NCBI GenBank assembly: GCA_017499595.2
Contig: CM039000.1
Coordinates: 3,038,001-3,102,000 of the forward strand
Reading direction: 5' to 3'
DNA from: Psilocybe cubensis
Taxonomy: Eukaryota
DNA length: 64,000 nucleotides
The stretch's first letter is position 1. Each line of letters begins with the position of its first letter. The notes below the pieces were generated by a model. That model did no database searches, was not told the origin of the DNA, and worked only from the letters and a program-made list of their open reading frames with translations. Positions 315-63,500 of this stretch are shown piece after piece. The translations under genes and the position numbers were made by a program.

Positions 315-1217
315 ATCAGTCCTGCAACGACTCGACAGTGATGAATTAGCGGCCAACTAAGGCTATGGTGCAGTGTATAGTGGTGGTAGCTTTAGAGAAT
401 GACACGAAGGAGTAGTGGATACTGTATGATGATACCTGGGTGCCTTAACAAGTCAGAGAGGGATCGCCTCAAGGAATTGGAATCGCGGTCATTGCCGGTT
501 GATTACTCATGTATATTTCTCACGCTCTTGTGCCATAAATTTGCGCAAATTTGCGCTGTGCTCTTTTTCATTCTCGTCGCGTGTCCTGCCTATACTATTC
601 TTTTTTCTTTCGCCAAACAACCGTGCTCATATAACACATAAGTCCCCATTCTTACTCTCTTCTAGGTGTGACTGATACACGATCCTTAAATTGTCTCGAT
701 AGGGAAGCTTTTACAGCCTCCAACAGCCTTTCAGCTGTTCTACTGTCGTGGAATGAGTCAAAATCGTGTAAGATCGATCCGGGGAAATACAGTGTGCTGC
801 TCTGTCGTCGTTTTGAAGGCAGCGCAGCCGGGCTCATACCCGCTGTTGTTCTCCGGATGAAGCCTCTGCACATTCACGCACGATTGCGATGCTTCATGCA
901 TTGTATGAGCCATCGTGCGTGGTTGCATTTTTGGCATACATTTTCCATACTTATTGACACAATTTGTATATTTAGCACTAGTTTTTACCAAAATATACAA
1001 AAATATTGCCACTAAAACGTGCTTTGATTGATTGTATACGTAAAGTCCGCATATGGCAAAGGTGCACTGTAGGCGGAGGTATGTTCGTTCAGCCTCATGT
1101 CGACAGTACGCCTTTATAGCTTCGCCCAACGTGTTTACCTCTTGTTTTCTTTTTCTTCTCAATTGACCTGCTCTGGATCCTTAAGAATACCCTTAGACTC
1201 TTTCTCTGCAAATCTGC

Positions 1218-19079: not shown

Positions 19080-21419
<2,340 letters not shown>

Positions 21420-41100: not shown

Positions 41101-43185
41101 TCTGGTCTGCCATGGTATCCGCGTCCGACCAATGGGCCCTCAACAACAAGTTCCCCAACGCCGCCTCTGAGAAGGATGTTCATATTAGGATCGACAACCT
41201 ACTCTATATTAATGACTTGAACAGTATAGAGCTAAACGAGACACATACATAACCTGATACATTAGCAAATGGTCGTCCAATGTTGGCCTTCGGTGTTCTT
41301 GAAGTCATATATCGAGCACAACATCCAATAGTGACTTCGCTCGGACCATAAAAGTTGGCGAGGCGGACATAGGGATGGTCTGCCCATTTATCGAGGATCT
41401 GAAGATTTTGATGAAGCGGAGTGAATAGTGATTTTCTCAAATAGATTCAAGGGACAATGACATACCGAATCGCTCATTTTCTCTCCACCACTGGCAATGT
41501 ACCTCAAGACAGTTTCTGATCCATCAGTCCCACTTTGTGAAGCATTCAATGTCGCCTCGATTAAGCTGGGAACGATGCCCAGGTGAGTGATGCCAAGTTT
41601 TTTAACATAACAAGGCAAATTTTCGAGAAGCTGAGTCCGGCGAGCACTCAACAGAGGCATACCCAATGCCAGGGGAACAATAGTTTCTCCTAGATGAACA
41701 TCAAAGGCAATCGCTAGAGAACATATTCAGCCGCTGAACTATCAGTTTCGAAGAAGATAAAGCACTGACAGGCAACGGCAAGATAACGTCCATTATGTAT
41801 GTTTTTCATACGAACGTCAGCAGCAGTGCTACTAAGGGCTAATATAGCCTGCGCTAGACCATGATGGGTGAGCAAACAGCCCTTAGGATTCCCAGTGGTT
41901 CCTTCGTAATAAGGGTTAGCGACGACGGTTCGGGGTATGCATAAATAAACATCTACCTGAAGTGTATAGAAGGTATGCAAGGCCATCTGATTTCATGCAA
42001 TTCAGATCTTCATCGCTTTCTTGCAGAATTTGAGATTGAGATACGTCGTCTTCTATATAGATAGTACGAGTGCCGAAAACGTCAGGAGATGCGATTTCAG
42101 ATGAAGTCAAAACAAAGGTAGCATTGGCATCTTTTGCGATATAGAGTTTACGCTCAAGAGGGAGTTCTGGATCAATCTTTGGAACACGTGTTTAGAGATA
42201 CTTTTTGGCTTAAAGACCAATAAGCGCTCACCGGAACGTAGCATCCACCTGCTCTCATGATGCCCATCATGGACGTATGGAAGTGAAGGTTTCTATCCAA
42301 ACATACCGCGATGCGATCTTCTGGTTGAAGGCCTAAACGTAATAACCACCGAGCCACCTGATTTGACTTTCTATGAAACTCGATATACGACATGTTTTCA
42401 TACGCAAATTCCGAGGAGTCTAGAGAGAGCTCCGGGTACCAACATACGGCTATCGCCAAAGGCATGTCTATGGCCCTTTGCGCAAGAAAATCCGGTGCGA
42501 AAGAGACAGCGGAGATGTGGGAGTACGATAGGGTAACATCTTCAACCGAGCCTCGTTCGAAAATGGACATTAAATCGGAAGTGAATGACGGTGTCGAAGC
42601 TAAAGATAATAACGGAGATTCTGAACCTTGTCGAATGAAACCGACGACCTGCAAAAGGACTTGAGTTGCTACTGTCGGGTGCATGGTCGCATTGGAGGCC
42701 GATAGGTGTATGATAGAGTCTTGGCTAGTGTAAGAAAATATAGGGGTGTCCTGGACATCTGGTGTTCTGAAGGATTGGTCAAATGTGCATAGCACGACAT
42801 AAGGGCACTGATTATCGTCCAACGAAAGGTGCCTCCGAGCGTTACTTAACGATAACGGCTCGTTCAATCCATTATGTACAGCATGATCAACTTTGACTTT
42901 TGCAGCCGCCCATGTATCGTCTTCATTCCACATTATTCTAACAAGGCTGATATTTCCATGGTGGCCCATCTTCACGGCAATAAGGACATCGGAAATGCCA
43001 CAATACACGCCGATGACACGGGCAATCGCGAGGAGAATTACTGAAGTATTGGTAGTTTCATTCTTGGAGATTCCATCCTCTGAGTGTGAGACGGGTTGAG
43101 AGGTAGTGTATGTATTTTTTGCAGGAGAGCGGTCTCCCGAAAGGTTTGGCCATTCTGCAAAGCTGTAGCCGTCCAGGGGTGACAT
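35149..43185 (-). CDS. NPS2: Siderophore nonribosomal peptide synthetase, A-T-C-T-C-T-C (basidiomycete type VI, CsNPS2/Cpf1-like)
   Basis: One A domain (YLLYTSGTTGNPKG, NFYGPSE, YRTGDL, GRIDTQIKLRGVRIE); three T-domain serines (FESGLDSM, ISMGLDSI, STLGVDSI); three C motifs (HHALFDG, HHSLYDG, HHFQYDA). Confidence 0.9.
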
Positions 43186-43539
43186 TCTCGTCGCGAAAGA
43201 GAGTAGGGTAGAATCGTTAGAGAGGCTAATCCGCTTTGTGTGGTACCGTCCGGGTGGGTAGTCTTAATCACAAGAAAGAATACCTAATATTGAGGAGAGG
43301 TCTGGCCGGATGAGCCACATATTTACAATGTGGAAACAGCTGTAATTCTTCATGATAATAGTCCGCGCAATCGGATGGCGACCTGACGTAAATTATTCAT
43401 GCAATTGAATTTACGAGTATGAAAAGACGGGTATCATAGCGATTCCGGAGCTGAAAGGGGGTTGGAAGGTACTTGGAGAAGCGTTTTAGCACAACCAGGC
43501 AAGAACATTTTCTTGGCGGATTGAGGCTCACATGTAATC

Positions 43540-43895: not shown

Positions 43896-45916
43896 ATGCC
43901 AGCAACACCTTCGCAAGAGACTGTTCTCGACTTGGTCGGCCTTGGTTTTGGGCCCGCCAATATTGCCATCGCAGGTGCCTTGACGGAACAATGGGCAGCT
44001 GAACAGGTACGCTGGCGTCCACGCATTTAGCGCCCGGCGGGTATTAACATTATTGTTCAAGGATGGGGTACCATTCCCTGTGAAAAATGTTCTCTTCATC
44101 GAAAAGTATACTCATTTCCGATGGCACCCTGGTATGCTTCTACCAGATGCCAAAATGCAAATCAGGTCGGTAAATTGTTTTCCTCGATGCTCCAATGCAC
44201 TTACTCATTTCCAATTTCTGAGCAGCTTCATGAAAGATCTCGCGACACTACGAAACCCTAAGTCCCCTTACACCTTCCTCTCGTATCTTCATAGCCAAGG
44301 CCGCCTCGTTTCCTTTATCAACCGTGGTTCGACGATTCCAAGTCGCAAGGAATATTCAGATTACCTGTCGTGGGCGTCATCTCAGGTTCAAGCCAACGGA
44401 GTGAAGGTCCTATTCGGCCACGAAATTATCGCCATTGACGATTCCCCAGAAAACACCATCGCCATCCGCTATCGAAATCTGGCTACCGGAGAGGAATCCG
44501 TCGTCAGAGCGAGTATGTCCCCCATCGTTTCTGCCTTCTGCCCATTGCTTAACAGCGTTCAGAAAATATTGTCATTGCTCCTGGAGGTGATCCTAAGGTG
44601 CCTTCCGTGCTCGCACACATTGCCAACCATCCACACGCACTTCATAGCTCTGATTATGCGACGTCGATATCCAAAATCCTTGAAACTGTCTCTGGAACGT
44701 CAAGGCCTCTTAGAGTAGCCGTAATCGGCTCAGGCCAGTCAGCTGCCGAGGTGACAATGGATCTGCGCAACAGATTAAACAATATCCCGTCAACGAGCCG
44801 ACATCAGGTCGACATGCTGATCCGTAAAGGAGCCCTAAAACCCAGTGATGATTCACCTTTTGCCAACGAGATTTTCGACCCCGTTTGTACGTACTTATAT
44901 ATGGAACCTCTTTTTAACATCTCGAAGCCTGATACATTTGTGCACAGCGACCGATGCTCACTTCTCGACATCGTCAAGACAGCTTCGGGAGATGAAACTC
45001 GCAGAATATAAGCTGACGAATTATGGTGTCGTAAACCCTCGAACACTGGAGAATGTACGTATCAGAGCTCTGGGTCGATGTCTAGGAATTGAACATTTGC
45101 CTTCAGCTCTACGAAATCATTTATGGACAGAGACTTGACGCCGATATTACCCACCGTCTGGGCGACCAAGGTGTGCGCGACGCGTTGATCAATATTAAGC
45201 CATATACTTTTATCTCCGAGATAAAAGTCGAGGGAAGCTCAAAGGACGCCCCTGATGCTGGCCTCCTCCTTTCCTCCGATATGAAAGCCCAAGTCGACGG
45301 TACCAAACCAGTGTTCTCGATTAGGACGCAGAACGTCATAGACCTCACCGAGGAGGAAGTGAAATACGACGCCATTGTGTATGCCACAGGTTACGAGCGC
45401 CGTACCTGGGTCAATTTGCTCAAGCACTCCGACATTGCAGTCCACTTCGGTCTTGACTTACTGACTTCTGAAGTTCGCCTGTTGCCCGCCGTCGACATCT
45501 TTCACTCAGTACAGCCACCAATTACCATGTCAAGTCAGTCAGAGTCCGGCATTTCGTCGCCTACTACAACCGTTAGCGCGCACAGCAGCCCACCAACGTC
45601 GCCAGAGATGGACACGTTTTATTCGCAAGGCAGCAAGCGTTCAAAGTGCCAGGAAGTGTTCATTTCGCGCAATTATCGTCTTCTGCCTACCAGACTCGTG
45701 GATGGAAAGGCTGATTACTTTGCTCCTGGAGTGTATCTTCAGGGATGTGAAGAGAGTACGCACGGATTGAGTGACACGCTGCTTAGCGTCATGGGAGTTC
45801 GTGCTGGAGAGGTTGTTCGCGATCTTGCTCATTTGAATTACAAGGTACGTGACTGACTATATTCTTGATCCCATTCCCGGTCCCATTTGGTAATTAATGC
45901 CGAACAGAGCAAGTGA
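43896..45916 (+). CDS. sidA: L-ornithine N5-monooxygenase (SidA/SMO1); ends at 45856 if the last intron is retained
   Basis: DLVGLGFGPANIA (FAD), [38 protein letters not shown] (NADPH), DDSPFANEIF, YATGY, YLQGCEESTHGLSDTLLS. Confidence 0.95.
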
Positions 45917-49143: not shown

Positions 49144-52100
49144 TCATCGCGACTTGTATTTCGCCTCGTTCTCGTGCCGGACGTTAGGATCCAATGTGTT
49201 GTGCAGACCGAGCAGGGTTTTGCTGACCGCCTCACTCGCGCCGATCATGGGCTTTAGGACAGCAATAGGTACTGCCCTGACAACAGATCGCACAGGACCC
49301 TAGAAAACTCGTGAGATTGCAAAACAAAATCATAGACACCAAAATTTACCTCATTTCCAGAACGTTCGTAAACCTCCATAGGAACAGCCAAAATAGTCTG
49401 TGCCGCAGAGCTTAGGTTTCGTTGGAGGCTCTTGTAAGCTGACTGCACGCCTTCCCTGAGGTCCGTGCGTTGATAAGCATATTTGGAAATCAGGTCTGAG
49501 GGGACTTCCTCTTCCTCATTCTCATAGTTGAACTCGTCGCCTGTTGGAACTTGGAGAGGCTCTGCTGTGATCGATGTATCAAATTGACCACCTAACACGC
49601 CTTCTGCTTGCTCCAAAACGACCTGGGTTCCCGTGGCGAGTTTGGCCCCCATTCTGATAGCTTCCACTGCCGTAGATTTGACAAACGCGGTAGCGCCCTT
49701 CTGCATACCGCGAACAATTCGTCCGTCTTTCTTGTATTGCGCGATAGGTAACAGAATAAGGTCGGCGACACCGGAGCCAACATTAACCATGGAACGAATG
49801 GGGGCAACTCCAGAAATAACCTCTACAAGTTGTGTGGCTTTCACGTCAGGCGTCCATAAGTCATTCAACATCTCAAAGAGTTTTGGCCATCCAGTCACCT
49901 AGCAAAACTTTCAGAAAGGAATAAATATTTAGTTGAACTGCGCTTACACCAGTTAAAGTGATATGGCGAAGCGTCATTTCTGCTCCATCGAAATGGAAGA
50001 AGTTCATCAGCTCAATTGTCCTTCCCTCCTTCAATGCTCTATAGTCGACTCGACGTGGCTTATAGTCTAGTTTAAGATCGATAGGGAATATTTCAGCCAA
50101 TTCTATATATGTACCTTTTTAGCCTTCTGTTTACATCGAACGGAAATTTGACTCACGAATATATGCTTCGTTGTCATCGGATTGCGATTCAGCACTGGGA
50201 ACCGCGTGAGGGTCTTTGAAGCTGAAGAACTTCTTTAGAAAATCGACCGCGTCTTGGTCAACGTATAGCCTCAGAGGGAGGATCTTAGCCTATAATGCGT
50301 TACCAAATAATACAGTTAATCTAATGACCACAGGAACTCACTCTCAGTCTAGCCTCTTCTGAAGAGTTACCGGAAACAGGGCGAACAGTACGAAGTTCGA
50401 TTCGTACCATATGTGAGTCAGTTTCTCGTATGTTACCCCTCGAGTCCGATCTAAGCTCCGTCAAAAACTTCTTCCACGTCGATGTCTTTATGTGGTCCAA
50501 AATTTCAAGGTCCTTGACTGTCACAAAAGCCCTTGACACAAGGGGGTCTTCTGGCTGGTATTGATCAAATTCCGCATTGACTCCTGCAAGGCAAAATTCC
50601 ATGCTTGGTGTTTTCGCCCTTGTCAATTTCTTCCCATGTATGCGTAGAGACCGAGCTCTGGATTTCCCGCCAGCATTAGAAGGTCTCAACGACTGCCATG
50701 AGCTTTGACTTGCTGTATCCATGTCGTCTTTCAGCTCTTCGTCAATGGCGGCGATCAAAGCAGAAGGTTCGCCTAAAAGGTCTTCATCGTCCTCCAATCC
50801 AATGTGCACTGAATTGTAGAGAAGAGCACTTGTATCTTCCATCATTGGCTCTTGAATTTGTCCATTGGCCACTAATTGGCGTATTTTGGCCAACCGTTTG
50901 CGCATTTCCTTCACTTCCTCTTCGATAGTTCGTCTGGTCTGGACCCAATCGTACCCGTCGTATAAGAATAACGTGAAGTCACTATCGAGAATCTTGAGGC
51001 TGAAATCTGGTTTACCAGAGCTAAAATTCACATCAGCCTTTGTAATCATATGAGATAAACTAATAACATACTAAGAACTTCCACTTGACTTTTCGGGCGG
51101 TATTGTTAGAAAGTAATCTTCGACAATGTGAAGACCTTCAGCATCAAAAATCTTGATGGTCTCCCCTCCAATATTTGATATAACGTTTGGATCATTCGAC
51201 GAAGTAGTATTTTCAATTTCTTGATCATCAAATTCATCCAAGTCTTCATCTACCATTTCTCTCAAGCCAGCGGCGGCGCCGAAAGATTCGTCGAGGTAAT
51301 CAAGATTGGTGGGTAGATCGTCGTAAATCATATCAGGGGCTGGACCGACATCTGGAACCTTCTTAAATGCAAGGTCCTCTATAGAAGCTGCGGCGACGCC
51401 GATTTTAGTATCTTGTGAACCTGAACCCAGAAACCAAGCTTACACATGAGTGTGCGTCCCTCTTGTTGTGGTTTCTGGTGAACTACAGCTGGCCCTTTCG
51501 GTAAAGCTGGTGGTCTAAAAAACCTTAGCAGTAGAATAGTAAATCATCCCATGAATGTAATGCTCACTGTGGATCTGAACTTTTGAAAGCCGACCCAAGG
51601 TTTTGTGCAAAAGCCGTGACAGCCGTTAAAGTATCCGCACACAAGTGCAGACGGAGCACGATACGATTTATATCAACCTATTCAGTATTAGCATAGCAAG
51701 AAAAAACTTTGCCCATGGGCTGACATGGGCTGACCTTCCATAAAGGAAATGTAGAGAGTTGGTTAACGACGTTTGTATCCAATTCCGCTACTTCAGCTAC
51801 TAGTGCATAGCCCGCAGACTATGGCGCATCAGTTGATGACTGGTGCATCAGGAAAAGACTCACTGTCCATGATAATAACCCCTGCGGAGGTGATCTAGAG
51901 GACTCGGGTACACGCTGGTCTTGGGTGTCGTCTATTGCAAGGAGCGCTAGGGAGGTTGCTGAAATATGAAACGAGGAGTCCCGAGAATCGCCCACAACAT
52001 CCGTTGAGAAGTCCAATTCATGCAAATAGGTCACAATGGATCCAGGATACTGTGGTGCCAGAAGGCAGACAGAGCCATCGACTATCTTCACAAAAATACG

Positions 52101-55100
52101 CGTTCGGTCGCTTGGTATGACGGATTCGAATGTCTTGTCATATAAATGTTATCAGCGTGATGCTGCCTCGGTAACACAAGGATAAGAGCGTACCCCAGGA
52201 GGATTTTTGGCAAATACAGCCAAGTCAGAGATCCAACGAACATCTGGATAGAAACGGTACGTGAAACCGCATACAGTTAATTTGATTCGAGTCTCTTTAG
52301 TATTAAGATTTGGCATAGTGGATGTCGAGAATCGAAGTTTGATAGTTGATCTAGGAGTCGAAGACTAAACACTACAACGTTATAAATACTTTTTGAATGC
52401 GATAACAAGTTACTCGCCAATGATTTCGCAGAAGTCAGTCCGAAGAACCTCTGTAGTTTTCCGTCGAAGTCGGTATTCTCCATAATTAAGTCAGACACCC
52501 CAAGGGTAAGGATTGTCTGTTGCTAGTTGATTGGATTAATATCAGCACAGCCAAAGAAGTCCAAAAAATTACTTTGTTGTCAGGATTTAATTCCACAAGA
52601 ACGTCAATGTCTGACGCTTTGATGTCAAATGGTCGTGGAGCAATGCTATCAGAATCAGTGCGCGGGATCATAACCCTAACAAATGCTAAACTCAAAACAT
52701 TTAGTTTAAAATGGAGTGCTTGAAGGTGATATTAATTCCTTGCCTTCCGTAATTGCCAGTTTTATGATAGACTCTGAACTTTCAGGTGTACTAGCACTAA
52801 AACTCCCGCTCCCATTCCTTGACTTTGCAAAGAACCTACTTCCAATGAGACTCACGTCCTTGCTATCTCCGGCAAACGATGATGACTCGTTGTTAAGTCT
52901 ACCCGATAGGCGTTCTAACAGCTGACTTAGGTCATCCACCCAATATTGCAAGGCATCGAACTCTTGCTTCGAAAGATCGACATGAACCGCAGGGATATCG
53001 ATACTGAGTGCGAAGGTTGGCGTTGCGCGTGACGGGCTAAGAGGTGGTTTGATAACGTAGATTGTTGGCTGTAATGAAGGGGGGGACTGAGAAGGAAGAT
53101 ACTCTGGATTGTCAGTCTCTAGATCTGTGAGGGCGCCAAGAGACGCAAAAGTAAAGGCTGTGGTGGCTCCGACCATCGAGCAGGCTATAACCAGTCTGCT
53201 AAATTCAATTTTGAGAAGGGTATCTTTTTCTGAAAAATCGAGATTGCGTGAGGGGATTTCATTGTCGTTGGCAAATCTGGCCGATGCCCTAGGCGAATGC
53301 GCGCCATGCCGCACTATAATATTATGCCAGTCAACAACGAGAGTGCCGGAGCGGGCATTTAATCGAGGAGGAGGGGACCGGACAGCCAGTCGAATTAGAG
53401 GGAACTTGATTGTTATGCGTGACTGATTACCGTCTCTGGTAAGATCCTATAAAGAACATTATTATTGCCAAATAAAATACAAATAAGGATAATGGTATCA
53501 CTGACCGGCTTGTTAGATCGCTGCTGATCATGAGTTTTGAAAATGTTTGGTCCCTTTGCAACTTTGCTCTTTGCTGCCATATTCCATGTAGAGGCATGCA
53601 TATCATTCTCAATAGTGTCTTCAGACGAAAGAGAGTCATGGTCACGGTCATCCTGCGTTTGAGGAACCAAAGCTTCAAAAAATGACAAAGGACCACCTGG
53701 TTGAAGAAGACACTCCAAGTCGATACGAATGTTAAGAGGAGCAATTTGAATGTCGGTAGTTTGGTCTATTGACACCCGACCGGTATCTTCCTTGGTTCGA
53801 CTGAGAAACCTGATAGCAGGTAGCGGCCCCGCATGCGATTCCTTCAACTTCCCGGGAGATGCAAGTGTCTGAGCCTTAAATTTACTATATTTCTGTTGGC
53901 AGCGCCAAAATGATAATTTGGTACCATAGCTCCGGCTTTCCTTATTCGTCCAGTCAATGACCTCAAAGTTGGGTAGAATAGGGTATCCTTCATTTGATTG
54001 GGGATGTATATGCCTATGAGGATACTGAGAAGACAGATAAGGATCGGTTAGAAGGAGAGGAAAGGCGGATAATGTCTCGTCATTAAATCCCGTTGTTCCC
54101 CGGAACAAGAATATAGATATATCTGCAATGGTGAAATCTGTCGACCTGGTCTCCGGTACCGTAGGTATGGGATTTGAGGTTGACGATGCTGATTTTTCTA
54201 CCCCCACGTTAGCCATCCTTATGGAGGCCGACAATGTATCCAAATGTAGTCGTATACAGCCATGCTTCAGCGAGGGAGGTGTCATAGGCTTCTCAAAATA
54301 TCCCGTCACATCAACCTCATTGGGCGAAGGGGGGACAAGGATGACGACGATTCCACGTATTTGTGCGTTGACCCTTAGAGATGGAAATTGATTTCTCGAA
54401 TCGCCCCTGTTACCAGAATCGTTGCTCGACACACTTTTGGAGGGGACTGAGGGGACTATAACCTTTCCCAGTTGCAGCAGTGCGTCCACTTGCCAAGGTT
54501 TCATTGCGCAAGCTATAACACCGATTGATGCAGAAAGCCTAAGTGGCTCCTCGCCAGGGTTGGGATCTGCTGACGATATGAATGGGTTATCATCGTCTTC
54601 TGGTGGTTCGGTGACGGGCGAAGGTGTCGTCAGAGAAAAATTGATTGGTTGACGTCCAAATGATACGAGAACCTCATCGACATTGTCCACATTTGTATCG
54701 GGAGCCAATACTGTGTCTTGTTCCTCAACGTCACTATGTGCATCAGTAAGAGTAGTTGGAAGGGTTTCCTGCGGATCTTTGTGGGAAGAAATTGTGGAAA
54801 TGGCGCTTTCGTACATACTACTGGACACTGAGCCCGTTGAGGATGGTGGCCTTGGTGGAAGCACAGCGAGCGACTGAGACATCATAAACTGTGCAGCGTC
54901 GTCTAAAGAGGACTGGGAAGATCGGCGAGAAATTGGCCGAGATGTCGCAACGCTGGGCGATCGAGGTTCAGGTGATTTTGTGACATACTGGAAGAAGGTA
55001 TGGGAGGAAGCAGACGAAAGATTGCGAGAAGACAAAGTCAACCCGTTGACGGATAGAGTCCGAGTTTCTCCTTCGACCAGACTACCTGGAGGAGCCGTTG

Positions 55101-55904
55101 AAATAGTCGTTTTGATACGAGAGTCAGTATGATACCGAACATCATCCAGAAACAAGGTCAAACTGATGTTATCTGGATGTACCAAAGTAATTTTGACATC
55201 TTGGACATCAAACTCAAATCTCGCCAGCAAACGCTCAATAAGACTCGCAAACACCGAGACTCCAGCTGGATCAGAATCCAAAGAGTGAGAAGTTTCTTCA
55301 GCCGAAGCTGGCACGTCAAGGCCGCCAGGAATGCTGTGATCTTCGTCATAGCTGGAGTGCAGTGCGGCTTCGTGATGGAACGATTGCCAAAGAGTGGCTT
55401 CTTCCCCCGAAGATAATTCCTGGTGAATGAAAGATTCGGCGACAGAGACGACAGACTCTGTTAAATCAATTCCTTCGCTACCCTTTTGATTAATGTGAGG
55501 GATGACGTGGAACACGAGATGCAGAGACCTCAGCGAAAAGCCCAATGTGGAGGCCAGAGGGTTAGGCCATGGAATCCGGGCTTTGATAAACGATATCGTT
55601 CCAGAATGTAGAGAAATAGGAAGACCATCCAAATATGCATTTATAGCCTACAACACCAGATTCATAAGCGCACTAGAGTATCGACTAAGAGATTACTTGC
55701 ATCGGGGTTTAGTTCAAGGTCATTCACCTGCACGTATCCCGAGCCGATTTGAGAGTCAATTTGATGATAATCGAGCTGACCGGGTTTGAGGAGGTGTCCT
55801 AACGCCTTCTTCAGCACGAATGATAGGAAGCGACCTTGAATACCGCTAGGGATGGAGAAGTTGAAGCTAGGTAAACCTGGGATCCAGGATGAATACCAGG
55901 ACAT
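49144..55904 (-). CDS. ATG2: Autophagy-related lipid transfer protein Atg2
   Basis: Chorein-like N-terminus ([15 protein letters not shown]), [67 protein letters not shown]. Confidence 0.93.
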
Positions 55905-56316
55905 ATTGATGTTACAGTACTATAGGTTACAGTTCAACTCGAGAGCTCAGAAAGGGGGGTGTCGTTTTCAAGCGACATGGGCTATGACTTGGGGAATGAA
56001 TGTTATAAGAAGGAAACCCCTATAGTGCAGAGCAATATGGCTGTCTGCTCAACGTGCAGCAGCATGACGCCCGTGAAGCCTCGTAAAGCGTAATGCTACA
56101 CGTGACATTGCATTTCTGAGACCCGGTCCGGGTAGTGTCTGCGTCTGGCGAGATTCAAGATCTTGCGGTGATTGAGCCTCAGGGATGAAGGTAAAGCATC
56201 GACGGTCCTAGATGGCTGTTTACGCAATTTACCGTCCATGCGAACTACTTCTTTCAGCGTATTCTTTCTCAGGCCCCAAAAATTATAGCTTTCAGGATTT
56301 CTGTTGACTTTCTTTC

Positions 56317-57444
56317 ATGCCAGTTCCACTCGCCGTAGGGTATTCTTTCTCAAACTCAGAATCTCGGTGGGACGAAGTACGAAAAATCGAATAAATTGTT
56401 ATTATTTTTATTGAAACTAGCCTCTTCTCTCAGAGTCAGATATCCAATGAGGAAGAAACGGTTAGGCGAGTCACTATTCGACAGTTGTGGAACGCGTTGC
56501 GCACAAGCGAAAAACATCATACCCAATGCACTCTCGACGGGGTCAATTTGAAGAAGGTGCGTATGGACATGTACTTTATATATTCACTCCGGCGCTCTGA
56601 ATGCATATCCATAGATAATTTTGATAGCCAATCTGCAACACTCAGGGTTGGCGCCATCCGAATGGCATATTCTCGATGATGGCACTGGCAGGATCAAAGC
56701 TTTCATCGGGAAGAACAAAGATCCAACCTATGTTTACGAGTTTGTCTTCTTATCTAGCTTTATTGTTGTCCGGAAAGTAATTGTTCGTCCTCGTCAAGTA
56801 AATTTGAATACGTTCGTGTTGTCGGCACCCTGGAATTTGGTGTTAGAGGAGAAAAAAGGTCGCTATCTGTGTTTAACATGGCGCCCGTCCACGATCCATA
56901 TGAAGTCTACTATCATATCAATCATGCTATGGTTGATACTATGATATGTGAAAGAGGCTCTCCTGTGAGTGTCGGCTTCTTGAATCGTCGACTGTATTCA
57001 TCGCCCATGGTGCCTACCCTTAGCCATATAATCTGATTCCAGATACCCATGGTCAAGATATCGAATCCTTGAGTCAGGCATTCCAGAACACATCCTTCTC
57101 AGACGTAACCGAACCGCATATGGCTCAACAATCAGTTCAAGAACCCAACCGCCAATACGATCGCGTCCCATTCAGGTCGCTCCTTGAGCGCGATATCATC
57201 GCGTTAATCGATCGAGCTAATCTTGTTTATCTCGAGGACCTCGTCATGTTTATTCGCCAAAGTTGCCCTACTGTGGACTCTGCCGCTTTAAAGTGAGTAT
57301 ATACGTATCAGGTTCTGAGTACGTCTTAACAATTACTCCAGGGAGGCTATTCAGTACCTATTGAGTGAGAATCTCATCGAGGCTGGCGAAGACAGTGGTC
57401 GTGACTACTTTCAACTCGGGGAGCGTATTACTGGAAGGAATTGA
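56317..57444 (+). CDS. Divergent replication protein A 32-kDa subunit (RPA2) paralog, ~281 aa, OB fold plus winged helix
   Basis: Exons 56317-56376, 56434-56556, 56615-56739, 56799-56964, 57024-57292, 57342-57444 (846 nt, in frame). Motifs RRVTIRQL, ILDDGTGRIKA, YVRVVGTL, DPYEVYYH...ERGSP and EAIQYL align with the RFA2 gene in this window. First exon least certain. Confidence 0.8.
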
Positions 57445-57657
57445 TTAATTTTATCTGGGGCGCGTTGTAGCATTAAATGTCCCAATATTCAATGTAAGTC
57501 AGTGCCTTGTTATCCCTTGAAATAATAAATGGATTTTGGAGTCACTGAACGGGGATACTGTGCCATGATGAGATAAGATCAGATAAAAGGACACAAGGTC
57601 ATGCAACTTGCCGAGAACTCTGGTTAACCTGTTGACCAACTTCGGTGATCAGCACAA

Positions 57658-58856
57658 ATGAATCTCACTTCTTTGTTGTCACGGTACAGGAGCTCTGGAA
57701 ACAAAGAGCATGAAGTTCCCCCAAATAATCGCCCTATCCATACCTCGTCTATATTCCATGTTGGATCGACGTGGACAGGCTTTTCTAGAATCCGGCGTAT
57801 AGTGATATTGTTCGTGCAGCTCTATGTTATCCATGTTTTCCAAATGAGAGAACTATAACTGATCAGCGGCCCGATCTTCACAGCGGAGACTCGTACAGCT
57901 CCGTGGAATTCTTAAACGACGAGGAAAGACCTAGCGCTTCTGATCCTCTTGGAATTGACTTTCCCGGACTCACCTACAATGAACCCGGTTTACCAAACTG
58001 GATTGGACACCTAATTACCAAACACTGCCCCGAGCCAAGATATAATCCAAGGAACCGAGACGAGCAGAGCGACGCTTGGAACCAAAGTCCATTGTTAGTG
58101 CACGATTATGCAAAGGGCGGCCAAACGGTTACAGGGGTTCAGAACCAAATCATGAACCGATTTCTCCCTACACTTGGTAAAAAACCAAAGTGGGCACCGT
58201 GGACTGCCCAAGAGACACTATTCAGTATGTGCTTGAAACACAATTTATTATTTTTCTCATTTATTGTCAGTTACATGGGTCGGAGTGAATGATTGCGGGT
58301 GCGTCAACACCATTTTATGAACGATCTTCCCGAAGTGATGCGAACACTTAATATATCAGGCTCTCTGCAAATCCAGAACATGCACTCGAACAGCTGTTTG
58401 TGACTCAGGAACGACTTTACAAGGCTGGTGCCCGACATTTCTTGTTTATTGACGTTCCTACGATTCACCGCAGTGCAGGAGGAAAGTTTGATCATGATTA
58501 TTTGGAACGTCCTGTCTGATAATGCAACTAATTCTTGACCTCTAAATTTAGTTGCGGTCGAAAAACAGTCAAGAGTATTGGAGGTCATTCGGAACTGGAA
58601 CACGGCCCTAAACGAACAGATTCATCGATTCAGCTTCAAGTTCAAAGATGCAACCGTTTTGTTATTCTCTGCCTTTCGCGCCTTCGATGTGCTGCTTGAT
58701 GACCCGGAAAGTCTTGGGTTAGACCCTGCAGATGTTCGTCGTAGAGGAGGCAGCATATGGATGGACCACATCCATCCAACCAGCGCAGTTCATGACTATC
58801 TCGCAAGCAAGATAGCGGAATTTATTTCTGAAGTACCTTCGAAAAAAACAACTTGA
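57658..58856 (+). CDS. SGNH/GDSL hydrolase (CE16-like esterase), no signal peptide
   Basis: Spliced block I IVIFGDSYS, block II DYAKGG, block III WVGVNDC, block V WMDHIHPT. Confidence 0.85.
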
Positions 58857-58978: not shown

Positions 58979-60117
58979 TCAAAGCGAAACATTGAAATGA
59001 GAGTCATCGATGGTCGTGAATACGTGACCATCGTCCATCAATTTATCGAGCGCCTCACTGTTCAGCCATTAATGTGTAATATCGCACAATAAATAATGAA
59101 ACATACCTGATTTTGTGAGCGTCTTGACCGCCTGCACCGATCGCTTTCGCAATGGCAGCAACATGTATACCCTCTTCCCTCGGAGGTTGACTCATAATGA
59201 AACGCACAATGTTTCGCTGTAAAGCTGGTAGGTGGCTGAATTGGTCACTTGGTCCACCCCCGCCTTGTACCGAGTACGCAGACATATTGCCACCACCGTT
59301 TTCGCTTGGTTTTGCATTAGCACCATGGGGGTTCGAAGGCTAAAGAAACATTAAGTCAGAGACCACGCGACAGGATAACAGATCGTACAGGGCCCCGCTC
59401 CATGATTAGGTTAACCGTTATGGCCTCAAGGATATGGAAATAGATTTCATGCGCATCTCGAATCTCCCGAATGTGGGTGGTGTTAAGGTACCTTTTTTTA
59501 CCAAAGCTTTTCAAGCCTCCGGTGACACGCACATAGTGGCCTTCACTGGAATATTTGTTCAACAATGAGAGATAAGAAGGAGATCAAGAACGACACACGT
59601 AATCTCGCCAAACCTAGAGGAATCGTCTTCGTTTGAGTTGTCGACCCAGTGTCGCGCTTCCATTTTTCCAGTACCATCGTCAATCATATACACGCAATTC
59701 GTTGTCTGTTTCTGAATAGACACGACTTGACCGACTACTGTGATCTATTTCGCAAATTAGGAAAGAATGAGTTCAATACAATAAAGAGACTGCCAACCTG
59801 GCCAATCTCTACATCATCGACCCTCCATTCCGCGTCGGTGTGGGCCTGCGTGGCTTTGTTGAGTTGAGCGATAGTGAAAGGTCGTAGAGAGTTCGAGGCC
59901 TCGGTTCTCTGCATATAACGTCAGGTCGTCGGCAAGATCACATCGTTGACAGCAGTGTAGATCACTTGCCCTTGCACCGCCTGGACTGCCGCTCTGGCTA
60001 AAAGGAGAGCCTCCCTGAAGATATCCTCCGCCGCTACCGTAGTGGTTGGTTTCGTCTGGGAGAGTTATTAGAGTCGGTAAATAAAGAAGGATGAAATAAA
60101 CGGCTACATTGACTCAT
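58979..60117 (-). CDS. RFA2: Replication protein A 32-kDa subunit (canonical)
   Basis: N-terminal GGYLQGGSPFSQSGSPG, LRPFTIAQL, YMIDDGTGKMEARHW, YVRVTGGLKSFG, HEIYFHILEA, winged helix EGIHV...LMDDGHVFTTIDDSHF. Confidence 0.95.
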
Positions 60118-60118
60118 G

Positions 60119-60242
60119 ACGCGTCTTATTAGAGTGGATGCAAGAAGTTGTACGGTACTTTAAGAAGGCTCAATGTCACAAGCGCGTGACAGTGAAATTG
60201 AGTGTACGTGACGTTGGCGTACGTCACATGAAATGTCGCGTC
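60119..60242. promoter_or_regulatory. MCB-like (ACGCGT/CGCG) and inverted CRE-like elements upstream of RFA2
   Basis: ACGCGT 60119-60124, GCGCGT ~60182, TCGCGT ~60236, GTGACGT 60208-60214 with ACGTCAC 60221-60227. Confidence 0.4.
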
Positions 60243-60542: not shown

Positions 60543-63500
60543 CTACGCAGAATAGGCTGCACGAATCCGTGTGATTCCATTACCTATGCCATCCAAGACT
60601 TTTCGACGGGAGTCGCCGATCTTTTTAGCATTAATGAACAGGAAATCATGATCAATCTAAATATCTTTAGTCAACTGGAACCATAAATCTAACGCAGTAT
60701 TACCTGTGGTGTCAATATTGGGGAACAATTAGAAATCAGTGCATTTCGTGTGTCGGACGAGCCATCGGCCTTGCCCCTTAGAACCAGCTCGGCGGATATA
60801 GATTGAAGAACGGACAATGCATTGGTGCGAAGTGTCTTGAAAATAGGCACGAGCTATTATGAAGATATTAAGATGAGGGATTTTTCTACTAAAATTTTGA
60901 AAAATGCTTACCCCGCTTAGTTTATTGATTTTGACGACCGAAGGCGATTTGAAACGTAGTGTTACAGCCACTAGAAGTAGGAAAGCCTAGGAAAAATGTT
61001 AACATCGGTTCACATTGGCTAATAGAGATAAACACCTCTTGAGCAAGGGTGGCTACATGAAGCAATTCACTTGGTGATGACTTCATAGCTTCAGGCAGTC
61101 GCTCCTTCACACCTTGTTTCGCCAATCAATCTCTCATCGACAATGACGTTGAGTTATTAATTACCATCAAAGTATTTCACAACAACTTCAGGGGCGTCCA
61201 TTATGGTGGGAGGCTCTTCGTCCTTTTTGTGGTGGCCGTTTGTCGTTGGCACCTCAACCCCTTTCAATGGATGTCCGGTCTTTAGTTCGGTTTGCTTAGC
61301 CGCTTCAGCCAGGACAACATCAGGAGGAGGGCGGGCATAATTATGGTAAGGCTCTAGCCAATCGATAAGGGCGTTCATATATTCAATGAACTTGGCTTCA
61401 TCCTCAGTGAGCTAGTACATACCATGGGTTATTATGGAAGTGGGAAAAAATCATAGAATGCTTACATCCGCAAAATCTTCTGGGCCCCGTTGCATTAGTC
61501 TTTCCTTAAGGGTGAGTCCATTTTCGTATTTGGCAGTTTTCTTTGGCCGATCCCCTATCAGCAGCTTTTCTTCCACTGTATCATCAATATCACTGGCTTG
61601 TTGGAATCCACGGATATAGACTTTGAGGAAACATGACAACCATTTGCTCTAGAATGGTAAATTAGAAAGCCGAATAATTCAAGGTGGATGCAACCTACTC
61701 CTTCAGGTTTTCCAAACAGTAATGTTTGTTCATTGAGATCTTTTGAAGCCTTTGGTTGATAATTAGGAAGAATATCGAAATCACGGTTGTCCGAGTGTTC
61801 TATGACGCTGTGTTAACTAATCAGGAAAAGTAATGTAAAACCACAACTGACCTCTATCAAATATAAACTTCAATTCAATCAACTCCATGTCGATGAGATC
61901 GTTTGTGACTGGTTCATGCGCAATACGCATACGAATATGTTCAAGTTTCACGGTATCACGCTGCAGTGAATTGTCCAAACGTTCTTCAAAGACGATAAAT
62001 TCGGGTATCTAGAAAGTGATAAATGTGCGAACAGTCGAAAGGAAGATGTTGTTCTAACCTGAGAGTATTTTTCAGACTGGAAAGCGCGAGCAATAAAGTC
62101 ACCGGTCTGATTAAAGTGTTTCAATCGAGTGTGTTGATATACAATATACAGGGGTCTTACTTCTTGCGTGTTGCTCAGGTAGATCTGTGTTGATTCCAGG
62201 CATTCGGTCAATAAAGTTAGGTCACCAATTGAACCTAGTGAAAAGGTTGACGCCCGAGAAAGAATCAGGTGAGAAAGGGTATCATTTTGGACTTGTTTAA
62301 TGTGCATAGCACGGTAATGCTCAAGAGCCAATGCAGGAGCACCTAAAAGCGATGGAGATAAATCAACAATTGATACATAACTTGTCCAGGGAACCATTAC
62401 TCGCCAAGTAATCGGTATAACCTGATCAAAATCAATCTTGTCAAAAACGATTGCTTGCTTCTAGAAAGAGCAAATTCTAGCAAGTAAGTAGCATCCAAAA
62501 GGTGGTTATCCTTTCCAGTCAATTTCCATAGGGTGATGAAGGCATTTGCAGCCAAGAGGGCAAAATCGTCAGCAGGTTGAAGTTCTGTGGAAGGAAGTCC
62601 AACTCCAAGAGCGAGACCCTCAAAGTAATAACGAGCGTATGCGGCCACACGAATCAACTCTTTCTCAGCCGTAATCTCCGATTCAGAGAGTGTATAACGA
62701 ATAAGTTTGAAAGAGTTAATTAGGCGGCGCAGTTCAGAGATTGTGGTCTGTTTGCCGACAGTCAGAATTTCTCGGAGAGCGTCCACCTCGCATTTAGTTC
62801 GACTCACAAAAGCTGTCGGAATTGCCTCCAGGAATGTACGTAATATGGACAGACTTTCTGCATCTAAAATCACGAAGGGTTTTAAATCCTCAAAGCAGCA
62901 AGCCTTGTCTCCGAACTTTTCAAAGTATTGCTTCAGTAGTGAAACCATTCGCGTAGGTTCTATATGGGGCGTTAGCGGGCTCGAAAAATTGAAAATTTAT
63001 GTGCCGACCTTGCGACAACCCGTGAAGGCGTGCTCGTTTCTCGAGGTCTAACAGTGCTAGAAGGCCAGAGCGATCTTTTGTACTATCCTCTTCGGCAATT
63101 TTGGAGAATATTTCCTGAGCGTGATTTACTTTTTCCCGGGCATCTGCTTCACCAATTATTAAAGGTGTCGTGTCTGGTAAGGTACCATCGAGAACGGCGA
63201 GAAATTCCAACCAATTACGGTCCCTGGTCCAGCATAAGCCAAATTCATATAATAAATAACGCCGCATACTTCTTTTCTGTTATTAGTTGCTCTGCGCGTT
63301 TAGCTTCCTGCTGATATCTGCCTTGCTGAATCATAATCGCGCGACGAATCTCATCGCACGCGAGACTGGTGGAGCAGATACTTTTCCCAACATCACTCTC
63401 AATGAGTTTGTCAGCTTCTTCCCATAGTTCTAGTTCTCGGAGGATGGAGAGGTGAAGATGGAAACGTTCAGCATTGACATATGATGGAGTAGGTGAAGAT

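What the first reader, a model, noticed from the sequence alone, without database searches (positions are those of the whole stretch)
56317..57444. Hidden, intact and highly diverged second RPA32 (RFA2) gene next to the canonical copy
Seen: six exons splice into a stop-free 281-aa protein that aligns segment by segment with the RFA2 at 58979-60117: VRRVTIRQL/LRPFTIAQL, ILDDGTGRIKA/MIDDGTGKMEA, YVRVVGTL/YVRVTGGL, DPYEVYYH..ERGSP/DAHEIYFH..ERGP, K|EAIQYL/S|EALDKL. Four introns fall at the same aligned position and phase (0, 2, 0, 2) and a fifth is nearly equivalent, which argues for duplication of RFA2 rather than Stn1. The copies face each other around an SGNH gene. Known: model yeasts have one RPA2, while alternative RPA complexes exist in mammals (RPA4) and plants. 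Inference: an alternative RPA or CST-like ssDNA-binding complex in a mushroom, possibly meiosis-, repair- or telomere-specific.
Basis: partly seen in the sequence, partly recalled or inferred. Interest (0 to 1): 0.8.

Follow-up and report, generated by a model that had tools for sequence, protein, structure and literature searches.

The report
Second, fast-evolving RPA32 gene in mushrooms
Next to its normal RFA2 gene, Psilocybe cubensis carries an expressed, correctly spliced second copy of this single-stranded-DNA-binding subunit; the copy belongs to an unstudied, fast-evolving gene family found across mushroom-forming fungi and is not the telomere protein Stn1.

Summary
Six GT-AG exons at 56317-57444 (+) give a stop-free 281-aa protein.

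The protein is homologous to the neighbouring RFA2 (27% identity over 219 columns). Four introns share position and phase with RFA2 introns, and a fifth lies within 1-2 codons.

The gene is not really hidden. It is annotated as hypothetical protein JR316_0003842, 226 aa, with a wrong 5' end.

It is also not a Psilocybe novelty. It belongs to a family named here in 25 species of Agaricales, Polyporales, Russulales and Jaapiales. Every one of the 10 species I could check also has a canonical Rfa2, on a contig of the same length in 9 of those 10.

A profile of the family matches RPA32 structures at 1e-36 to 1e-21, against 9e-9 for human STN1. Pfam Stn1 matches 0 of 40 members, and models show one winged helix, not two.

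The family evolves about three times faster than Rfa2. Its function is untested. The most likely role is an alternative middle subunit of an RPA-type trimer.

The parts
56317..56376 (+). Exon 1 of the RPA32 paralogue. Holds the start codon and residues 1-20 of the disordered N-terminal tail.
   Evidence: Model. The joint 56376>56434 appears in contigs of X1 and X2. The N-terminus aligns with the P. cyanescens orthologue P0004.
56434..56556 (+). Exon 2, residues 21-61. Covers the end of the tail, the VRRVTIRQL motif and the first OB strands.
   Evidence: Joints on both sides. The motif is shared with canonical Rfa2.
56615..56739 (+). Exon 3, residues 62-103 (last codon split). Forms the OB-fold core with the LDDGTGRI motif.
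   Evidence: The public model P0003 uses a different acceptor inside this exon; the contigs do not support that acceptor.
56799..56964 (+). Exon 4, residues 103-158. Holds the last OB strands (YVRVVG) and the long helix (about residues 136-155) that follows the OB fold, ending in ERGSP.
   Evidence: The helix is H81-100 in the P0003 model. The DPxEvYxH...ERG motif is the best-conserved stretch shared with Rfa2.
57024..57292 (+). Exon 5, residues 159-248 (last codon split). Covers a low-confidence linker and the first two helices of the winged helix.
   Evidence: The linker has pLDDT below 55 and the winged helix 95-98 in the P0003 model.
57342..57444 (+). Exon 6, residues 248-281 plus the stop codon. 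Holds the recognition helix and wing of the winged helix.
56180..57509 (+). Approximate span covered by the spliced transcript-like contigs (1044 nt in X1, 961 nt in X2).
   Evidence: tables 2 and 8. Contigs do not define true transcript ends.
58979..60117 (-). Canonical RFA2 (RPA32). It has 7 exons and encodes 273 aa; it is the parent-type paralogue, convergent with the candidate.
   Evidence: Model. All six introns are joined in X1 and X2 contigs. It is 99.6% identical over 242 aligned residues to GenBank 'Replication factor A protein 2 [Psilocybe cubensis]' P0132, which lacks the first 30 residues. Pfam tRNA_anti-codon and RPA_C are precomputed for P0132.
57700..58856 (+). Intervening gene. 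Its start is not determined and it may be a GDSL/SGNH-type hydrolase. It is not part of the paralogue pair.
   Evidence: GT..AG joints at 57809>57884, 58224>58271 and 58297>58359. The only Pfam signal is Lipase_GDSL at E 0.21 on the last exon; nothing appears at E<=0.001.

Best explanation
The gene encodes a paralogue of the middle RPA subunit (RPA32/Rfa2).

Architecture: a short disordered N-terminal tail, one OB fold equivalent to RPA32 DBD-D, the long helix that in RPA packs into the three-helix trimerisation bundle, a flexible linker, and a single C-terminal winged helix.

Origin: it belongs to a family that arose by duplication of RFA2 before the radiation of Agaricales, Polyporales, Russulales and Jaapiales. 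The family has stayed on the same contig as RFA2 in most species and evolves about three times faster than RFA2.

Shown here: the gene structure, splicing and expression, homology to RPA32 over the full length, the family's range, and its coexistence with a canonical Rfa2.

Inferred: it replaces Rfa2 in an alternative RPA-type heterotrimer with Rfa1 and Rfa3, or with unknown paralogues of them. Rfa1 would then supply most of the DNA binding. The diverged tail and winged helix would change which partner proteins are recruited and how the complex is regulated, as human RPA4 does in alternative RPA.

My confidence that it is an RPA32 paralogue of an Agaricomycetes-wide family is about 0.9. My confidence in the alternative-trimer mechanism is about 0.5. 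The figure below is for the whole statement.
For: Structure and expression.

Homology to RPA32:
- BLASTP to the neighbouring RFA2 gives E 2e-13.
- A profile of the two Psilocybe proteins finds U. maydis RPA32 (4gnx_B) at 3.3e-6 as the only one of 4 PDB matches (E<=10) below E 1.
- A profile of 40 family members finds U. maydis RPA32 at 1.2e-36, human RPA32 at 8.8e-29, yeast Rfa2 at 7.9e-21, and the human RPA32 winged helix at about 3e-6.
- hhalign of the family against 21 canonical Agaricomycete Rfa2 gives probability 100, E 1.7e-57, over 235 columns spanning the OB fold, the helix and the winged helix.
- Shared motifs include DPYSHLSxLQRxI just before the winged helix.

Fold:
- AF2 model of the Cyclocybe orthologue: pLDDT 80.9, with one OB fold, a helix and one winged helix. 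Its best Foldseek hits are RPA32 chains; 4gop_B gives TM 0.88, rmsd 2.1 and 30% identity.
- Model of the window's own annotated product: winged helix at pLDDT 95-98, with RPA32 chains again on top.

Family and phylogeny:
- 105 profile hits at E<=1e-3.
- In the quick tree of the 77 hits of at least 200 aa plus the two window proteins, a 49-row clade with SH-aLRT 100 holds the candidate.
- The careful tree of 59 rows gives the family (23 rows) 100/99 and canonical Rfa2 (21 rows) 100/99.

Coexistence and linkage: in 9 of 10 species where both proteins are listed, the two sit on contigs of identical length. These are P. cubensis, P. cyanescens, Cyclocybe, Crucibulum, Hypsizygus, Lyophyllum atratum, Guyanagaster, Jaapia and Sparassis. 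Cyathus is the exception.

Introns: four identical and one near-identical intron position.

Precedent: RPA4 replaces RPA32 in a complex with RPA70 and RPA14 (PMC10779431, passages seen).
Against: - No binding partner was tested, and Rfa1, Rfa3 and Ten1 of this organism were out of reach.
- Pfam finds nothing significant in the Psilocybe proteins. Only 18 of 40 family members match RPA_C, and 18 of 40 match tRNA_anti-codon, at E<=1.
- The aromatic residue aligned with human RPA32 W107 is G in P. cubensis and N in P. cyanescens, with F/Y two residues upstream. The F135-equivalent is I in P. cyanescens. Most other family members keep aromatics at both sites. That these two residues contact ssDNA is recalled, not checked here. 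DNA contact by this OB fold may therefore be weakened in Psilocybe.
- Divergence is high: 51.9% identity between P. cubensis and P. cyanescens, against 84.6% for Rfa2. This could partly reflect relaxed constraint, and dN/dS could not be computed.
- The tree cannot be rooted. The family, canonical Rfa2 and 15 unnamed Rfa2-like rows meet at one node, so the date of the duplication is an inference.
- The transcript evidence comes from one study, and its runs are only guessed to be RNA.
Confidence: 0.6

Rival explanations
1. It is an RPA32-derived protein that no longer works inside an RPA trimer. Either it is drifting under relaxed constraint in the Psilocybe lineage, or it has been re-used as a free-standing OB/winged-helix adaptor in some other process.
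For: - It diverges roughly three times faster than Rfa2 in all 9 species pairs compared.
- The W107-equivalent aromatic is lost in both Psilocybe proteins.
- No Pfam family reaches threshold on P0003 or P0004.
- The N-terminal Gly/Ser-rich tail of canonical Rfa2 is absent.
Against: - The reading frame is intact and all five introns are spliced.
- Conservation between the two Psilocybe proteins is patchy, not uniform: 74 of 123 aligned residues are identical in the OB fold plus helix, against 18 of 43 in the linker.
- The post-OB helix motif is the best-kept segment of the whole family.
- The family has been retained in 25 named species of four orders.
- The winged helix is modelled at pLDDT 95-98.
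Confidence: 0.25
2. It is the Agaricomycete Stn1, or has taken over Stn1's role. In that case it pairs with Ten1 in a CST-like telomere complex that promotes C-strand fill-in.
For: - Stn1 is an RPA32-like protein built from an OB fold plus winged helices.
- The family profile does reach human STN1 at 9.3e-9 and S. pombe Stn1 at 0.063. That is better than the canonical Rfa2 profile, which reaches human STN1 at 1.1e-4.
- Many family members are 340-503 aa long, like Stn1.
- Rapid evolution is typical of telomere proteins.
- I could not check the P. cubensis genome for another Stn1.
Against: - RPA32 scores 130, 104 and 78 bits against 38 bits for STN1 with the same profile.
- Pfam Stn1 (PF10451) matches 0 of 40 members at E<=1, and neither Psilocybe protein.
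- Both AF2 models have one winged helix. The extra length of long members lies in the variable, gapped linker between OB fold and winged helix, and the Atlas model of the 441-aa member has mean pLDDT 0.57.
- RPA32-specific motifs and four exact intron positions are shared with the RFA2 of the same genome.
- The ESM Atlas lists a separate cluster, 'putative CST complex subunit STN1' (304 members, 295 with a known phylum, commonest Basidiomycota, 47% carrying PF10451). This is a lead only.
- Stn1 and Ten1 homologues are reported for U. maydis (PMC9119445, passage seen).
Confidence: 0.08
3. It is an annotation or assembly artefact, or a dead pseudogene that merely looks open.
Against: - The locus is present without differences in a 108,708-nt contig of run X3. 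Run X4 differs at one synonymous site, Ala41 GCG>GCA.
- Spliced contigs match the six-exon model exactly.
- Orthologues exist in other genera.
Confidence: 0.02

Closest known systems
Canonical fungal Rfa2 / RPA32 (for example the RFA2 at 58979-60117; U. maydis RPA32 in PDB 4gnx/4gop)
   Same: - Same domain order: tail, OB fold DBD-D, helix, linker, one winged helix.
- Shared motifs and intron positions.
- Profile-profile E 1.7e-57; fold TM 0.88 to 4gop_B.
   Different: - Only 27-41% identical to the Rfa2 of the same species.
- Lacks the Gly/Ser-rich N-terminal tail.
- The linker varies, giving total lengths of 281-503 aa among the named members.
- Evolves about three times faster.
- Always present in addition to a canonical Rfa2 in the 10 species checked.
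Human RPA4 (alternative RPA)
   Same: A lineage-restricted RPA32 paralogue with the same architecture. RPA4 replaces RPA32 in a trimer with RPA70 and RPA14 and changes partner interactions (PMC10779431, passages seen). This is the model for the proposed mechanism.
   Different: - Independent origin.
- RPA4 is 47% identical to RPA32 (same paper), so it is much less diverged.
- RPA4 is restricted to primates according to that paper, whereas this family spans a fungal class.
- Complex formation was not tested here.
C. elegans RPA-4 and plant RPA2 paralogues
   Same: Further independent cases of duplicated RPA32 subunits, some with germline or meiotic roles (PMC7913698, PMC12033130 and PMC4731521; only titles and abstract openings seen in the search listings).
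   Different: They belong to different lineages with independent duplications. No stage-specific expression data were available for the fungal gene.
Stn1 (CST complex)
   Same: An ancient relative of RPA32, with an OB fold followed by winged-helix domains. It binds a small OB partner (Ten1) through the OB fold and its helix, and it evolves fast.
   Different: - Stn1 has two tandem winged helices (abstract opening of PMC3691326, seen in the listing); this protein has one.
- No PF10451 match.
- Sequence, fold and intron evidence all place this protein with RPA32.

Membership tests
RPA32 / Rfa2 family | Central OB fold homologous to RPA32 DBD-D | tested here: met
   - A1 profile (two Psilocybe proteins) matches U. 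maydis RPA32 at 3.3e-6.
- A2 profile (40 family members) matches RPA32 chains at 1.2e-36 to 5.7e-20.
- Foldseek gives TM 0.80-0.88 to RPA32 OB chains.
- Pfam tRNA_anti-codon matches only 18 of 40 members at E<=1, and not the window's protein.
RPA32 / Rfa2 family | Long helix directly after the OB fold (trimerisation helix) | tested here: met
   Predicted helices are 139-158 in P0005 and 81-100 in P0003. The DPHEiYxH...ERGPP motif is shared with canonical Rfa2 and is the best-conserved block. Its use in a trimer was not tested.
RPA32 / Rfa2 family | Single C-terminal winged helix of the RPA_C type (PF08784) | tested here: met
   - Family profile matches the human RPA32 C-terminal domain at about 3e-6.
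- hhalign covers it.
- One winged helix appears in both models, at pLDDT 95-98 in P0003.
- Caveat: Pfam RPA_C matches 18 of 40 members at E<=1 (best 1.5e-8) and does not match P0003 or P0004.
RPA32 / Rfa2 family | Ser/Thr-rich N-terminal phosphorylation tail | tested here: inconclusive
   The tail is predicted to be disordered and holds several Ser residues, including one SQ. The conserved Gly/Ser-rich motif of canonical Agaricomycete Rfa2 is absent.
RPA32 / Rfa2 family | Aromatic ssDNA-contact residues equivalent to human W107 and F135 (their role is recalled, not checked here) | tested here: inconclusive
   Positions were mapped through. Most family members keep W/Y/F at both sites. P. cubensis has G at the W107 column (F two residues upstream) and an F near the F135 column. 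P. cyanescens has N and I.
RPA32 / Rfa2 family | Assembly with RPA70 (Rfa1) DBD-C and RPA14 (Rfa3) | not testable with these tools
Stn1 (CST subunit) | Match to the Stn1 OB-fold family PF10451 | tested here: not met
   It matches 0 of 40 family members at E<=1. It does not match P0003 or P0004 at E<=10, nor the 10 proteins at E<=0.1.
Stn1 (CST subunit) | Two tandem C-terminal winged-helix motifs | tested here: not met
   One winged helix appears in the models of P0005 and P0003. The Atlas model of the 441-aa member has mean pLDDT 0.57.
Stn1 (CST subunit) | Closer in sequence and fold to Stn1 than to RPA32 | tested here: not met
   - Bits with the same profile: 130 (U. maydis RPA32) against 38 (human STN1) and 15.8 (S. 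pombe Stn1).
- Foldseek identity: 18-30% to RPA32 against 12-14% to full-length human STN1 chains.
Stn1 (CST subunit) | Being the only Stn1 candidate in the genome; binding Ten1 | not testable with these tools
   No genome is held. A separate Basidiomycota STN1 cluster in the ESM Atlas is only a lead.

The most novel reading that the evidence does not exclude
Mushroom-forming fungi have kept, since before the split of Agaricales, Polyporales, Russulales and Jaapiales, a second RPA-type complex built around this fast-evolving Rfa2 paralogue. Under this reading the complex is dedicated to a special DNA transaction, such as meiotic recombination in basidia, replication control in the dikaryon, or telomere or repeat maintenance. 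Its rapid divergence would then reflect adaptive change in partner recruitment rather than decay.
Probability: 0.3. Interest if true: 0.65.

Novelty: new member of a known kind. Interest (0 to 1): 0.45.

Why it matters
Fungal work on RPA rests on yeasts with one RFA2, and alternative RPA32 subunits are known from primates, nematodes and plants. A class-wide, expressed, rapidly evolving Rfa2 paralogue that stays linked to RFA2 would add a fungal case that can be studied genetically in Coprinopsis, Schizophyllum or Pleurotus, if they carry it.

It may also explain part of how mushrooms handle ssDNA in meiosis or in the dikaryon.

It is a caution for annotation too. The family is filed as 'hypothetical' or, in Hypsizygus, under the same name as the true Rfa2. 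Both P. cubensis gene models are truncated at the 5' end.

Tried and rejected
- Whole-genome search was impossible, because no genome is held for the window. I therefore ran no search for Stn1, Ten1, Rfa1 or Rfa3 in this organism and no complex prediction.
After that I worked with single-exon references, stored database proteins and in-box computation.
- A search with exon 5 alone found only the organism's own protein (1 of 63 candidates).
- Pfam on the Psilocybe proteins alone gave nothing usable: MCM4_WHD at E 0.068 only.
- The look-up of sequencing runs listed no holder on record as RNA. The spliced contigs of X1 and X2 were used instead. Contig depths were not used to rank the two genes.
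- Rooting and dating of the duplication stay open. The quick tree put the family next to canonical Agaricomycete Rfa2 (support 85). The careful tree gives an unresolved three-way node with 15 unnamed rows. Of three unnamed rows probed, two look closest to U. maydis RPA32 and one to human RPA32. That fits a duplication within Basidiomycota but does not prove it.
- dN/dS could not be computed, because no coding DNA of any orthologue could be fetched.
- The SGNH identity of the middle gene was not confirmed.
- ACGCGT (an MCB-like site) occurs 16 times in the window against 8.86 expected, and 3 of 100 shuffles reach 16. One copy lies two bases upstream of the RFA2 start codon, inside a depth bin (60048-60188) that the contigs cover, and one lies inside candidate exon 2. 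This is not informative.
- Literature. Searches for RPA32 + paralog + basidiomycete (0 papers), for RPA2/RPA32/Rfa2 paralog phrases (35 papers, 20 listed, none on fungi by title or abstract opening) and for Coprinopsis + replication protein A + meiosis + paralog found no description of this family. The held part of the Agaricomycete fruiting-body review PMC10282164 (first 300,000 of 653,132 characters) has no mention of RPA, Rfa or Stn1. Supplements were closed and may hold expression tables that bear on this.
- The search of earlier findings returned nothing.
Full report
**1. What is in the sequence**

The window is from Psilocybe cubensis. A search with exon 5 alone returned one protein, 'hypothetical protein JR316_0003842 [Psilocybe cubensis]' (P0003, 226 aa, 100% identical; 1 hit among 63 candidates).

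On the + strand, the stretches 56317-56376, 56434-56556, 56615-56739, 56799-56964, 57024-57292 and 57342-57444 join into an 846-nt reading frame of 281 codons plus a stop. The five introns are 57, 58, 59, 59 and 49 nt long, all GT..AG, with phases 0, 0, 2, 0, 2.

Its intron phases are 1, 0, 0, 2, 0, 2, and its second intron is GC..AG.

The spliced products align at 59 of 219 identities, E 2e-13.

Four candidate introns coincide exactly, in position and phase, with RFA2 introns:
- K61|I62 against Q69|I70;
- the split codons D103 and T118, each four residues before the Y of YVRV;
- P158|P159 against P170|P171;
- the split codons K248 and S248.

The first candidate intron lies 1-2 residues from an RFA2 intron of the same phase, in a weakly aligned tail.

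**2. Is it transcribed and spliced as proposed?**

Five public runs from two studies hold the stretch. I laid four of them. Two (X1 and X2, one study, labelled only 'RNA?' by the tool) each contain one contig (1044 and 961 nt) that skips exactly the five proposed introns. Another contig in each skips all six RFA2 introns, including the GC..AG one. The two DNA-like runs X3 and X4 show none of these joints.

The spliced form therefore exists as RNA-derived sequence, though the evidence comes from a single study. Contig depth cannot rank the two genes, and I did not use it for that.

Run X4 differs from the window at two places in 4.2 kb. The one inside the candidate is synonymous (Ala41 GCG>GCA).

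**3. 'Hidden'?**

Not quite. The gene is annotated, but the public model starts at an out-of-frame ATG in exon 2 and uses another acceptor in exon 3. Ten wrong residues therefore replace the true first 65.

It departs from the candidate at exactly three of the candidate's intron positions (residues 61, 103 and 248). I read that as mis-called splice sites in that annotation, which is an inference.

Neither Psilocybe protein reaches any Pfam threshold. This explains the label 'hypothetical'.

**4. What family is it?**

A profile of the two Psilocybe proteins already finds U. maydis RPA32 (4gnx_B) at 3.3e-6 and no Stn1. Against 1.84 billion representative proteins, the same profile finds 105 proteins at E<=1e-3 (16 at <=1e-10, 2 at <=1e-30).

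I built a quick tree of the 77 hits of at least 200 aa plus the two window proteins (79 rows). In it the candidate sits in a 49-row clade (SH-aLRT 100), separate from an 11-row clade that holds the window's RFA2.

Source names obtained for 30 representatives, plus the two Psilocybe species, place this family in 25 named species:
- Agaricales: Cyclocybe, Gymnopilus, Cyathus, Crucibulum, Lyophyllum, Hypsizygus, Leucoagaricus, Cristinia, Guyanagaster, Lentinula, Amanita, Pluteus, Mycena and two Psilocybe;
- Polyporales: Dichomitus, Gelatoporia, Somion, Panus, Cytidiella, Daedalea, Sparassis, Fibroporia;
- Russulales: Artomyces;
- Jaapiales: Jaapia.

I checked the orders of five of these. The rest are from my own knowledge.

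UniProt calls many of these proteins 'Replication protein A C-terminal domain-containing protein'. Hypsizygus has both this protein and its true Rfa2 named 'Replication factor A protein 2'.

**5. RPA32 or Stn1?**

A profile of 40 family members (A2) gave these PDB matches:

| Target | E-value | Bits |
|---|---|---|
| U. maydis RPA32 | 1.2e-36 | 130 |
| Human RPA32 | 8.8e-29 | 104.1 |
| Yeast Rfa2 | 7.9e-21 | 78 |
| Isolated human RPA32 winged helix | about 3e-6 | about 30 |
| Human STN1 | 9.3e-9 | 38 |
| S. pombe Stn1 | 0.063 | 15.8 |

As a control, a profile of 21 canonical Agaricomycete Rfa2 (A4) gives 8.1e-47, 2.5e-40 and 5.5e-24 for the same RPA32 chains and 1.1e-4 for human STN1. Both profiles therefore see STN1 as a distant relative. 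The paralogue profile sees it somewhat better, which I attribute to its greater diversity.

Other evidence points the same way:
- hhalign of A2 against A4 gives probability 100 and E 1.7e-57 over 235 columns, from the motif before the OB fold to the last strand of the winged helix.
- Pfam over the 40 members matches RPA_C in 18, tRNA_anti-codon in 18, RMI2 in 3 and Stn1 (PF10451) in 0.
- A multiple alignment shows that the family keeps RPA32-specific blocks: LRPVTIRQL, DDGTGRI, YVRVxG, DPHEiYxH...ERGPP, DPYSHLSxLQRxI, and the ...EGYIYTTiDDxHY end of the winged helix.
- The AF2 model of the Cyclocybe orthologue (pLDDT 80.9) has a disordered tail (1-24), one OB fold, a helix (139-158), a low-confidence linker and one winged helix (219-290).
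- Its best Foldseek hits are human RPA32 chains (about 1e-12) and U. maydis RPA32 (TM 0.88, rmsd 2.1, 30% identity). Human STN1 follows at 1.7e-9 with 12-14% identity.
- The model of the window's own annotated product, which lacks the first OB strands, has the helix and a winged helix at pLDDT 95-98. RPA32 chains again rank first.
- The ESM Atlas lists the family's own Basidiomycota cluster and, separately, a 304-member 'putative CST complex subunit STN1' cluster that is mostly Basidiomycota, with PF10451 on 47% of members. This is a lead, not a test.
- Stn1 and Ten1 homologues are reported for U. maydis (PMC9119445, passage seen; PMC13234504, passages seen).

I conclude that the family is an RPA32 paralogue, not Stn1.

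**6. An extra copy, linked to RFA2**

A search with a canonical Rfa2 (P0026, Gymnopilus dilepis) found 131 proteins at E<=1e-10 among 1158 candidates, of which 120 are listed.

For 10 species both the canonical protein and the paralogue are named. In 9 of them the two lie on contigs of identical length:

| Species | Contig length (nt) |
|---|---|
| P. cubensis | 4,186,456 |
| P. cyanescens (locus tags CVT25_001071 and _001061) | 131,546 |
| Cyclocybe | 997,541 |
| Crucibulum | 1,845,564 |
| Hypsizygus | 1,512,123 |
| Lyophyllum atratum | 4,672,155 |
| Guyanagaster | 2,897,764 |
| Jaapia | 1,897,776 |
| Sparassis | 3,720,193 |

Cyathus is the exception (777,524 against 1,391,544).

Together with the shared introns, the simplest history is one local duplication of RFA2 in an ancestor of these orders, with linkage retained since.

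**7. When, and how fast?**

The careful tree (59 rows, 276 columns) recovers three groups that meet at one node:
- the family (23 rows), support 100/99;
- canonical Agaricomycete Rfa2 (21 rows), support 100/99;
- 15 unnamed Rfa2-like rows, support 93/80.

The bootstrap had not fully settled when the search ended. The tree is unrooted.

I probed three of the unnamed rows. Two are most like U. maydis RPA32 and one is most like human RPA32. If the root lies among the latter kind, the family is sister to Agaricomycete Rfa2. This fits a duplication inside Basidiomycota but is not proven.

In all 9 species pairs compared, the paralogue is far more diverged than Rfa2. Three examples:

| Species pair | Paralogue identity | Rfa2 identity |
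|---|---|---|
| P. cubensis / P. cyanescens | 51.9% | 84.6% |
| Hypsizygus / Lyophyllum | 44.5% | 82.4% |
| Cyathus / Crucibulum | 38.4% | 70.3% |

Between the two Psilocybe proteins, identity is concentrated in the OB fold plus helix (74 of 123 aligned residues). It is lower in the linker (18 of 43) and in the part of the winged helix present in P0004 (17 of 43). That pattern suggests constraint rather than uniform decay.

**8. How it most likely works**

Shown: an RPA32-type architecture, with the post-OB helix as the best-conserved block.

Inferred: this helix does what it does in RPA, which is to pack with Rfa1 DBD-C and Rfa3. The protein would then form an alternative RPA-type trimer whose tail and winged helix recruit or regulate differently. 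Human RPA4 is the precedent (PMC10779431, passages seen).

Points against or left open:
- No partner was tested.
- The column of human W107 (mapped) is G in P. cubensis and N in P. cyanescens, although most family members keep an aromatic there and at the F135 column.
- The canonical Gly/Ser-rich tail is missing.
- No stage-specific expression data could be reached.

**9. Novelty**

RPA32 paralogues are known in primates, nematodes and plants. I found no paper describing one in fungi. The sequences themselves sit in databases under automatic names.

This is therefore a new, class-wide fungal member of a known kind. It is real and worth a genetic test, but it is not a new kind of system.

Noticed in passing
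window 59970-60117 (- strand): The GenBank model of the canonical RFA2 (P0132, 243 aa) starts at an internal Met. It lacks the first 30 residues, which are encoded by a 10-nt first exon and an 86-nt second exon. Spliced contigs support these exons, including a GC..AG intron at 59909-59969.
   Followed up: partly
P0004 (P. cyanescens CVT25_001061) against the candidate, residues 61, 103 and 248: The P. cyanescens model has a 4-residue gap, an 8-residue insert and a premature end at exactly three intron positions of the P. cubensis gene. These are probably mis-called splice sites, so the true orthologue is likely more similar than 47-52%.
   Followed up: partly
window 35386-43263 (-) and 43984-44715 (+): ORF pieces carry Condensation, PP-binding and AMP-binding domains (a non-ribosomal peptide synthetase). 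They lie next to, and diverge from, an L-ornithine/lysine N-monooxygenase. This looks like a hydroxamate-siderophore gene pair.
   Followed up: no
window 50324-55647 (-), 61951-62996 (-), 30042-33502 (-), 19513-21225 (+): Neighbouring genes by Pfam on ORF pieces are ATG2, the NatB non-catalytic subunit MDM20, SPT6, and a multi-RRM RNA-binding protein.
   Followed up: no
window 1197-3323, 4575-7295, 7234-9501 (+): Three very long open frames (709, 907 and 756 aa) have no Pfam match at E<=0.001. Long antisense open frames lie over the first of them. Their nature is unknown.
   Followed up: no
window about 57700-58856 (+): The gene between the two RPA32 genes is spliced in the RNA-like contigs. 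It shows a GDS motif and a DxxH motif, but only a sub-threshold GDSL hit (E 0.21).
   Followed up: partly
window 60119-60124 and 56492-56497: ACGCGT (an MCB-like hexamer) sits two bases upstream of the RFA2 start codon, inside a depth bin that the contigs cover, and once inside candidate exon 2. The window total of 16 is not clearly above chance.
   Followed up: partly
Family members P0009-P0012, P0023, P0024, P0033, P0040: Many orthologues are 340-503 aa long because of a long, poorly conserved linker between the OB fold and the winged helix. The Psilocybe, Gymnopilus and Cyclocybe proteins (281-291 aa) have a short one.
   Followed up: partly
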